Source of the DNA: Octopus vulgaris
Taxonomy: Eukaryota
DNA length: 64,000 nt
Assembly (NCBI GenBank): GCA_951406725.2
Contig: OX597841.1
Location: forward strand, 24,242,001-24,306,000
Direction of reading: 5' to 3'
Shown: positions 51,346-52,123 of the stretch, piece by piece
How positions within the stretch are numbered: position 1 is the first letter of the stretch
Layout of the letters: each line of letters begins with the position of its first letter
Made by a program: the position numbers and the translations under genes
The notes under the pieces: generated by a model
Told to the model about the DNA's origin: nothing
Databases searched by the model: none
Seen by the model: the letters and a program-made list of their open reading frames with translations, nothing else

Positions 51346-52123
51346 TGATAGATTGTTAGCTACTACACACAATTTTTCTCTCCTTTTTTTTTTCTCTCCT
51401 TGTTTTCTCTGTGTATCTTTCTGATGAAGAGCATAGGCTCGAAACGTAAAAGACTTTTTCTATTCCTGAGCGTTATACTAATACATCTGTTTGTTTGTAC
51501 ACCACCTGCCTTCGACTTTTGTTTATTTTCGTAAACTTTCCCCATATATATATATATATATATATATATATAATATTAATTATATTTATTATTATTATTA
51601 TTATTTATATATATATATATATATATATATATATATATATATATATATATATATATATATATATATATATATATATATATATATATATATATATATATAT
51701 ATATATATATATATATATATATATATACACCATGATAGATCGTTAGCCACTACACACATTTTTTTTCTCTCCTTGATTTTCCTGTATCCCTTTCTGTAGA
51801 AGAGCGTAGGCTCGAAACGTTAAAGACTTTTTCTATTCCTGAGCGTTATACTAATACATCTGTTTGTTTTGTACACCACCTGTCTTCGTCTTTTGTTTTT
51901 TTTGTAAACTCTTCCTATATATATATACATATACACACCATGATAGATCGTTAGCCGCTACACACATTTTTTTTCTCTCCTTGATTTTTCTGTGTACCTT
52001 TCTGTAGAAGAGCGTAGGCTCAAAACGTAAAAGACTTTTTCTATTCCTGAGCGTTATACTAATACATCTGGTTGTTTGTACACCACCTGCCTTCGTCTTT
52101 TGTTTATTTTCATAAACTTTCCC
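51346..52123 (+). mobile_element. three head-to-tail ~190-bp family E units separated by (TA)n, each with a hammerhead motif
   Basis: Units about 51346-51543, 51728-51916, 51935-52123. Confidence 0.85.
51416..51453 (+). ncRNA. minimal type-I hammerhead ribozyme
   Basis: TCTTT-CTGATGA-A-GAGC ATAG GCTC-GAAA-CG-TA-AAAGA; 5-bp stem I, 4-bp stem II, palindromic ACGT stem III, GUA site. Confidence 0.85.

What the first reader, a model, noticed from the sequence alone, without database searches (positions are those of the whole stretch)
51346..52123. Tandem trimer of ~190-bp hammerhead units, a retrozyme-like array that could yield circular RNA
Seen: three head-to-tail units with cores at 51421, 51794 and 52002, separated by (TA)n of different lengths; dispersed copies at 2335, 13961 and a fragment at 54455-54531. 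Only unit 1 has the canonical CUGAUGA; others read CUGUAGA or CUGUUGA, and unit 3 has lost G12. Established: tandem small hammerhead monomers (non-LTR retrozymes) are processed to monomeric linear and circular RNAs. Inference: same biology here. CUGUAGA recurring in three copies suggests a propagated variant core rather than random decay.
Basis: partly seen in the sequence, partly recalled or inferred. Interest (0 to 1): 0.7.

Follow-up and report, generated by a model that had tools for sequence, protein, structure and literature searches.

The report
Penelope retrotransposon tails with altered hammerhead
The three repeats are tail ends of a very common Penelope-type jumping gene, likely stacked here because the element inserts into TA repeats. 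They are probably not a dedicated circular-RNA unit; the unusual part is that almost every copy in the genome carries the same change in the core of its predicted self-cutting RNA, which may still cut slowly but is untested.

Summary
The trimer is real, with the cores described. Each ~190-bp unit is the 3' end (pseudo-LTR) of an RT + GIY-YIG Penelope-like element (PLE), Neptune-like: 19 of 20 long-ORF loci end in it, and two show the full pLTR-ORF-pLTR layout. The motif is a PLE-type minimal, dimer-dependent hammerhead, not a canonical retrozyme one.

About 43,000 copies are estimated genome-wide. Most are solo: 5 of 97 have a tandem neighbour. The three units differ from each other more than from dispersed copies and include two subfamilies, though a tree test does not reject common origin. 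Copies span the uncut cleavage site and do not pile up at it. So serial or partial-tandem insertion at (TA)n fits better than a circle-derived multimer. No RNA evidence was obtainable.

Only positions 7 and 17, the free hammerhead positions, vary across subfamilies. Unit 1's canonical core is the rarity. The scan noted this A6U core before on other DNA (e1-9559914; probably also e1-10338939).

The parts
51346..51525 (+). Unit 1: 5'-truncated 3' end (pLTR) of a Neptune-like PLE, subtype A
   Evidence: nearest sampled copies are dispersed, 5 mismatches in about 149
51416..51453 (+). Minimal type I hammerhead, canonical CUGAUGA core (rare in this family), extra A after A9, 4-bp helix II, loop-less palindromic helix III, predicted cut after 51448
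   Evidence: matches the min-HHR description in PMC4209133
51526..51729 (.). Long (TA)n spacer with an interrupted TAT/ATT stretch; likely target site, later expanded
51730..51917 (+). Unit 2: PLE 3' end, subtype B; CUGUAGA core at 51794, GUU triplet, predicted cut after 51821
   Evidence: the same subtype is continuous with a GIY-YIG ORF end in L093
51918..51937 (.). Short TA/CA spacer
51938..52124 (+). Unit 3: PLE 3' end, subtype A at five marker sites, but sharing its 5' junction and one variant with unit 2; CUGUAGA core at 52002, G12 to A at 52022 (CpG site)
52193..52407 (+). 3' end of a second high-copy repeat family with its own hammerhead (CCGAUGA core at 52291, palindromic ACAGCUGU helix III) and TA tail, same orientation; PLE origin inferred, ORF link not found
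2336..2522 (-). Dispersed solo copy, CUGUAGA core at 2457
13963..14160 (-). Dispersed solo copy, CUGUUGA subfamily (98% to ORF-linked copy L129), core at 14091
54455..54532 (+). Core-less 3' fragment followed by (TA)n; begins about 17 nt downstream of the cut site

Best explanation
The three units are 5'-truncated 3' ends (pseudo-LTRs) of a Penelope-like retrotransposon family that encodes RT and a GIY-YIG endonuclease, likely stacked here by repeated target-primed insertion into (TA)n, each carrying a minimal hammerhead predicted to cut only weakly and only as a dimer. SHOWN: the link to the ORF, the pLTR-ORF-pLTR layout, the fixed 3' end with TA tail, clustered 5' ends 30-100 nt upstream of the core, rarity of tandems, and the family-wide U6 core. 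INFERRED: the element's enzymes nick (TA)n and copy uncleaved RNA from its 3' end. Copying often stops near the 5' cluster, which is likely the pLTR transcription start, so the ~190-nt unit would be the RNA's terminal redundancy. Each insertion leaves a TA tail that is a new target, which would give mixed stacks like this one; units 2 and 3 may be one partial-tandem event or partly homogenised. The U6 motif likely stays under hammerhead-like constraint in the master elements (about 55-60%), as a slow cutter that lets RT read through.
For: Longer copies run through a ~1-kb C/T/A-rich 3' UTR into a GIY-YIG ORF. 29 of 30 endonuclease-hit loci have a same-strand copy 389-1228 nt downstream. 19 of 20 long-ORF loci end in the unit. 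Pfam finds RVT_1 above cut-off and a weak GIY-YIG match (E about 0.075, below cut-off) in 2 of 2 proteins tested. The linker has C-x4-C-x2-C, fitting the Neptune-type CX2-5CxxC motif. L121 and L125 show an upstream pLTR joined by a short TA run to a ~4.3-kb body. 5 of 97 focal copies have a same-strand neighbour within 600 bp, and 6 of 6 copies in 390 kb of random sequence are solo. Units differ by 10-15 mismatches from each other but 3-5 from their best dispersed copies; siblings rank 43-97 of 141. Five co-segregating subfamily markers separate unit 2 from units 1 and 3. 51 of 64 copies have a 3' TA run. 55 of 59 have 5' ends 30-100 nt upstream of the core. There is no excess of 5' ends at the cut site: 11 of 30 inspected loci by eye, of 54 matches, about 20 genome-wide, against about 3 of 30, of 151 matches, about 15 at a control point 6 nt downstream. 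A repeat of a different family sits next in the same stack. In 77 copies not selected on the core, only positions 7 and 17 vary among 37 motif columns, against 36 of 115 columns outside (Fisher p 2e-5).
Against: The AU test does not reject the three units as one clade (p 0.277) nor units 2+3 (p 0.391); only 152 columns. Units 2 and 3 share the same 5' junction and a variant seen in 6 of 94 sampled copies, so they may not be independent. Best-hit comparisons are inflated because neighbours were picked by similarity from tens of thousands of copies, and CpG decay gives parallel changes. A near-homogeneous 7-unit array of this family exists at G000:C23 (L140/L171), so local multimers do form. No empty-site comparison was possible. 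For constraint on the motif: the helix II loop is also invariant, columns are not independent events, and A6 changes are known to cut Mg2+ activity sharply (A6C; PMC7151607). The Neptune label rests on one motif, not on a tree with reference PLEs.
Confidence: 0.78

Rival explanations
1. A functioning non-LTR retrozyme: read-through transcripts of the array fold into double hammerheads, release 208/373-nt monomers that are ligated into circles, and PLE enzymes reinsert them.
For: Tandem layout and monomer sizes fall in the published 170-400 nt range (PMC7229834). A 2026 preprint argues animal retrozymes derive from PLE pLTRs and counts tandems with minimal hammerheads. In a double hammerhead, unit 1's canonical core would cut the partner's site, so it could in principle cut sites 2 and 3 (geometry). 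A near-homogeneous 7-mer exists at C23.
Against: The unit is an ORF-linked PLE end. About 95% of sampled copies are solo. Copies are not permuted or bounded at the cut site. The double-hammerhead fold lies 10-11 kcal/mol above the MFE for each unit pair (secondary-structure model only). Minimal PLE hammerheads cut poorly even as dimers (PMC4209133). Two of three cores are U6, and one of these also lacks G12.
Confidence: 0.1
2. One insertion was duplicated locally (unequal exchange or slippage at TA tracts), then diverged and was partly converted by dispersed copies.
For: Units 2 and 3 share a 5' junction and one variant. AU tests are not significant. Local amplification is seen at C23, and an adjacent pair sharing a rare C6 core lies at C2:125,529,959 and 125,530,126.
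Against: Five subfamily-diagnostic sites split unit 2 from units 1 and 3 exactly as in dispersed subfamilies. Unit 1 has a different 5' end and an internal CT duplication.
Confidence: 0.12
3. On the core: U6 killed the ribozyme in the founder of this lineage, and the motif persists only as a structural or protein-binding signal for RT or the pLTR promoter.
For: Position 6 changes strongly reduce cleavage (PMC3088659, PMC7151607). No genomic trace of cleaved templates. Naiad PLEs proliferate without canonical hammerheads (PMC8557442). The helix II loop is as invariant as the core.
Against: The only two columns that vary across subfamilies are N7 (U44, A14, C12, G7 of 77) and H17 (A49, U26, C1, never G), the positions a hammerhead leaves free.
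Confidence: 0.4

Closest known systems
Minimal type I hammerheads in pLTRs of metazoan Penelope-like elements (Cervera and de la Pena 2014, PMC4209133; parts 1-2 of 4 read, supplements not seen)
   Same: Short helix I (4-5 bp), extra nucleotide between 9 and 10.1, G10.1-C11.1, no loop 3 with palindromic 15.2/16.2, located in pLTRs, mostly solo truncated copies, predicted dimer dependence.
   Different: Core is U6 across the whole lineage; the text read reports U3-A8 covariation but no A6U. Helix II is 4 bp, against 7-8 bp in the schistosome examples.
Neptune clade of EN+ PLEs (as described in Craig et al. 2021, PMC8557442; passages read)
   Same: RT then C-terminal GIY-YIG, CX2-5CxxC-type linker, microsatellite insertion bias, 5' truncation, partial tandems, inverted neighbours.
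   Different: Clade not tested by phylogeny; Nematis shares a linker Zn motif.
Metazoan non-LTR retrozymes (Cervera and de la Pena 2020, PMC7229834, passages; Li et al. 2026 bioRxiv 10.64898/2026.07.22.740005, parts 1-2 of 5)
   Same: Short head-to-tail type I hammerhead units, low GC, unit length in range, PLE connection.
   Different: Here the unit is the end of a coding PLE, the motif is minimal, not canonical, the array is heterogeneous and mostly variant-core, and no RNA circle is shown.
Natural A6C hammerhead of phage Bcep176 (PMC3088659, PMC7151607; passages read)
   Same: Natural substitution at position 6 of the CUGANGA core.
   Different: A6C in a single phage motif, slow in Mg2+ and rescued by Mn2+; here A6U in over 16,000 copies of an animal retroelement, activity unknown.

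Membership tests
EN+ Penelope-like element (pLTR / 3' end) | Single ORF with RT followed by GIY-YIG endonuclease upstream of the unit | tested here: met
   (GIY-YIG Pfam match weak, below cut-off; YIGQT motif visible)
EN+ Penelope-like element (pLTR / 3' end) | Partial tandem: 5'-truncated upstream copy forming a pLTR before a full body | tested here: met
   L121 and L125, 2 of 20 loci
EN+ Penelope-like element (pLTR / 3' end) | Hammerhead motif within the pLTR; frequent 5' truncation; microsatellite targeting | tested here: met
Neptune clade | CX2-5CxxC linker between RT and EN | tested here: met
   C-x4-C-x2-C in ORFs; motif definition
Neptune clade | RT phylogeny groups with reference Neptune elements | not tested
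   no reference PLE sequences were fetched
PLE minimal hammerhead (min-HHR) | Short helix I, extra base after A9, G10.1-C11.1, loop-less palindromic helix III | tested here: met
   against the description
PLE minimal hammerhead (min-HHR) | Consensus core CUGANGA...GAAA | tested here: not met
   met only by unit 1; U6 in 16,336 of 16,958 exact-core copies; unit 3 also G12A
PLE minimal hammerhead (min-HHR) | Self-cleavage as a dimer | not testable with these tools
   needs in vitro assay; no pile-up of 5' ends at the cut site
Metazoan non-LTR retrozyme | Short non-coding unit, not part of a coding element | tested here: not met
   unit is continuous with the PLE 3' UTR and ORF
Metazoan non-LTR retrozyme | Canonical type I hammerhead with 6-bp helix I and 1-2 bp helix III capped by a loop | tested here: not met
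   helix I 4-5 bp, no loop 3; descriptions
Metazoan non-LTR retrozyme | Tandem copies each with a complete hammerhead | tested here: inconclusive
   tandem here but 1 of 3 cores canonical; 5 of 97 sampled copies tandem; one near-homogeneous U6 7-mer at C23
Metazoan non-LTR retrozyme | Abundant monomeric linear and circular RNA | not testable with these tools
   only contig data of guessed RNA type were available

The most novel reading that the evidence does not exclude
An animal retrotransposon lineage has fixed an A6U hammerhead core in more than 16,000 copies and through several subfamily turnovers, while leaving only the two catalytically free positions variable. It would be a naturally down-tuned, possibly metal- or protein-gated dimeric ribozyme that standard CUGANGA searches miss. 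Its ~190-nt start-to-tail unit occasionally forms homogeneous arrays (C23 7-mer) that could be retrozymes in the making (about 15% for this last step).
Probability: 0.4. Interest if true: 0.55.

Novelty: new variant of a known kind. Interest (0 to 1): 0.36.

Why it matters
The trimer itself is an ordinary by-product of PLE insertion. The family-wide U6 core matters more. It widens the allowed hammerhead core if active. If inactive, it shows that a PLE can thrive with a dead but conserved ribozyme. Either result bears on the open question of what PLE hammerheads do. The genome offers a ready natural series (A6 and U6 lineages, all four bases at N7, solo copies, mixed stacks, one homogeneous array) for a direct test.

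Tried and rejected
Rfam: no hammerhead match to unit 1 at E up to 10; the whole-window scan was swamped by microsatellite-driven miRNA models (150 of 481 rows shown). Single-motif folding: not more stable than shuffles and no hammerhead MFE, 4 of 4 tested, as expected for a loop-less helix III.

RNA evidence: no RNA holder listed. Laying 4 contig runs (3 guessed RNA, 1 unknown) showed the family sequence but no joints in the guessed-RNA runs and little cover across the unit junction. Contigs of a multicopy repeat cannot show locus expression or circles, so this counts neither way.

Monophyly test: not significant. The first 5'-end mapping ran into TA/CA repeats and was redone with stricter alignment. 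In one search the script flagged 7 of 30 and 5 of 30 as truncated. By eye I count 11 of 30 (two of them near-identical duplicates) and about 3 of 30 true junctions, setting aside one internal deletion and one copy that starts further upstream.

No PLE ORF was found for the 52291 family within 1.5 kb in 20 loci, nor in the window (the query was the other family's protein). G12A as a propagated variant was rejected: it sits at a CpG and recurs sporadically (4 of 77). Unit 1's CUGAUGA as the ancestral or master state was rejected: it nests among CUGUAGA copies, and only 50 exact copies exist, many in separate older A6 subfamilies.

Literature: no natural A6U or octopus hammerhead paper turned up. 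Lunse et al. 2017, on PLE hammerhead variants, was not held, and the supplements of PMC4209133 were not read; either could already list U6 variants.

Full report
1. Observation. The window comes from a 2.8-Gb animal genome, G000. It is likely an octopus; that rests on recalled repeats, genome size and the labels in earlier scan notes, and no sequence tool named the organism. Each motif reads helix I (4-5 bp), CUG-N-N-GA, an extra A, a 4-bp helix II, GAAAC-GU-H with no loop 3, then the helix I partner. This is the minimal hammerhead described for Penelope-like elements (PLEs), which needs a second copy to form helix III (PMC4209133). Rfam misses it. A structure-aware scan found 3 hits in 390 kb of random genome and 0 in each of 5 shuffles.

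2. What the unit is. Genomic copies share a fixed 3' end followed by TA (51 of 64) and have variable 5' ends. Longer copies continue through about 1 kb of low-complexity 3' UTR into a GIY-YIG-type ORF. Searching with that protein gave 6,776 candidates. Of the 30 loci returned, 29 have a same-strand copy of the unit 389-1228 nt downstream. Of 20 loci chosen for long open frames, 19 end in the unit. Pfam gives RVT_1 above cut-off and a weak GIY-YIG match in 2 of 2 proteins. The linker carries C-x4-C-x2-C, the Neptune-type motif that was proposed to drive microsatellite targeting (PMC8557442 passages). L121 and L125 show the textbook layout: truncated upstream pLTR with hammerhead, a short TA run, a ~4.3-kb body, and a second pLTR. 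CUGUAGA copies, the core of units 2 and 3, are themselves ORF-linked (L093, L105 and L026). The unit is therefore a PLE end, not a separate non-coding element.

3. Abundance and tandems. Six copies in 39 arbitrary 10-kb stretches give about 43,000 genome-wide (95% range 16,000-94,000); all six are solo. Among 97 focal copies, 5 have a same-strand neighbour within 600 bp and 2 an inverted one. About 0.9 tandems are expected by chance (p 0.002; p 0.05 at the upper density bound). So tandems are enriched but rare, as expected if each TA tail is a fresh target and PLEs make partial tandems (PMC6765202 passages).

4. Origin of this trimer. The units differ from each other at 10-15 of about 149 sites but from their best dispersed relatives at 3-5; siblings rank 43rd to 97th of 141. 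Those relatives were picked by similarity, which flatters the contrast. Five linked subfamily markers put unit 2 in one subfamily and units 1 and 3 in another. A fourth hammerhead-bearing repeat of a different family follows in the same orientation about 70 nt later. Against full independence, the AU test does not reject one clade (p 0.277; units 2+3 p 0.391). Units 2 and 3 also share their 5' junction and a variant seen in 6 of 94 sampled copies, so they may come from one event or be partly homogenised. A near-homogeneous 7-unit array of the same family exists at G000:C23 (L140/L171) and is a better retrozyme candidate than this locus.

5. Do copies come from cut RNA? Among 59 sampled copies with a CUGUAGA/CUGUGGA-type core (unit 1 included, six inner units of the C23 array dropped), 55 begin 30-100 nt upstream of the core and 44 between 60 and 100 nt. 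All of these span the intact cut site. A genome search for copies whose core side is missing at the cut site gave 54 matches; 11 of 30 inspected were true truncations by eye, about 20 in all. A control point 6 nt downstream gave 151 matches with about 3 of 30 true, about 15 in all. So there is no pile-up at the cut site, against thousands of intact copies. The templates were uncleaved RNA. I infer that the 5' cluster marks the pLTR transcription start. That reading came from an earlier scan note (e1-9926904) and fits the known pLTR start in Penelope; I tested the clustering, not the start itself.

6. The core. Exact 30-letter counts are 5,192 for U6A7, 11,144 for U6 with U, C or G at position 7 (59 U, 27 C, 14 G among the first 100 listed), and 622 for any other base at position 6 (73 C, 19 A, 8 G among the first 100 listed, a neutral-looking spectrum). 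Canonical CUGAUGA occurs 50 times. Many of those belong to separate, more divergent A6 subfamilies, and the rest are scattered inside the U6 clade. Unit 1 is of the scattered kind. In 77 copies not selected on the core, 76 are U6. Of 37 motif columns only position 7 and position 17 vary at subfamily level, and 17 is never G; 36 of 115 columns outside vary (p 2e-5). These are the two positions a hammerhead leaves free, which suggests continued constraint. Caveats: the helix II loop is equally fixed, columns are not independent, and position 6 changes are known to slow cleavage strongly in Mg2+, with Mn2+ rescue for A6C.

7. How it likely works. A tandem PLE is transcribed from its upstream pLTR. 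The element's endonuclease and RT would insert cDNA at (TA)n, starting from the RNA's 3' end, and often yield only the last ~190 nt. The hammerhead would cut rarely and only when two copies pair, perhaps to trim or circularise full-length RNA as proposed for PLEs. If this trimer were transcribed through, unit 1's canonical core could in principle cut the sites of units 2 and 3. However, the double-hammerhead fold is 10-11 kcal/mol above the predicted minimum for each pair, and minimal PLE hammerheads are weak even as dimers. Public RNA data could not decide this.

8. Comparison and novelty. It works like a PLE pLTR with a minimal hammerhead and passes those membership tests, except for the consensus core. 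It fails two defining features of non-LTR retrozymes (non-coding independence, canonical hammerhead), though a 2026 preprint blurs the line by deriving retrozymes from pLTRs. I found no report of a natural A6U core or of octopus hammerheads; an octopus repeat annotation paper has 0 occurrences of 'ribozyme'. Lunse et al. 2017 was not available, and the supplements of the 2014 paper and of the preprint were not seen. The scan's earlier notes report an A6U core in another genome and an unusual core in about 14,000 copies in this one. Verdict: the array is ordinary; the lineage-wide U6 core is a new variant of a known kind and worth a cheap bench test. Interest 0.36.

Noticed in passing
G000:C23, about 44,072,790-44,074,190 (L171:5791-7187, minus strand): Seven head-to-tail units of the same family. 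Four inner units share one 5' junction, six share a private helix I variant, spacings are mostly 172-241 nt, and all cores but one (CUGGAGA) are CUGUAGA. A locally amplified, retrozyme-like array.
   Followed up: partly
window 52193-52407 (+): Second high-copy repeat family (2,843 candidates, best copies 91-93% identical) with a CCGAUGA hammerhead, palindromic helix III loop and TA tail. Most copies read G or A just before GAAAC where this copy has C. No ORF link found within 1.5 kb.
   Followed up: partly
window 49207-49279 (-) and 21507-21554 (+): Decayed hammerhead-bearing ends of related families. The 49.2-kb family has a helix I covarying with ours (GUUU/AAAC against CUUU/AAAG); an intact copy lies in L192.
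   Followed up: partly
G000:C2:125,529,959 and 125,530,126: Adjacent same-strand pair 167 bp apart sharing a rare C6 core and the same CpG change; likely a local duplication.
   Followed up: no
G000:C1:91,212,249/91,212,407 and C1:1,878,302/1,878,450; L004, L018, L030: Inverted neighbouring pairs of hammerhead-bearing ends, as described for PLE insertions; in L004, L018 and L030 the partner is from another subfamily or family.
   Followed up: no
G000:C12:6,050,343-6,096,250: Four matches at about 15-kb spacing that begin at the predicted cut site; the two inspected (L259, L260) have identical upstream flanks, so likely a segmental repeat.
   Followed up: partly
window 33261-33353: Near-perfect inverted repeat of about 45-bp arms (hits miRNA models on both strands, below gathering score); possibly a small fold-back element.
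   Followed up: no
window 7011-8615 and 25980-27467: Minisatellite arrays: 26-bp unit x 62 and 113-bp unit x 13 (96% matches); the latter looks built from a piece of a common dispersed repeat.
   Followed up: no
L111-L117: Long open frames of 730-850 codons often run on past the endonuclease into the C/T-rich 3' UTR; several copies are near-identical, suggesting recent activity of the CUGUUGA subfamily.
   Followed up: no
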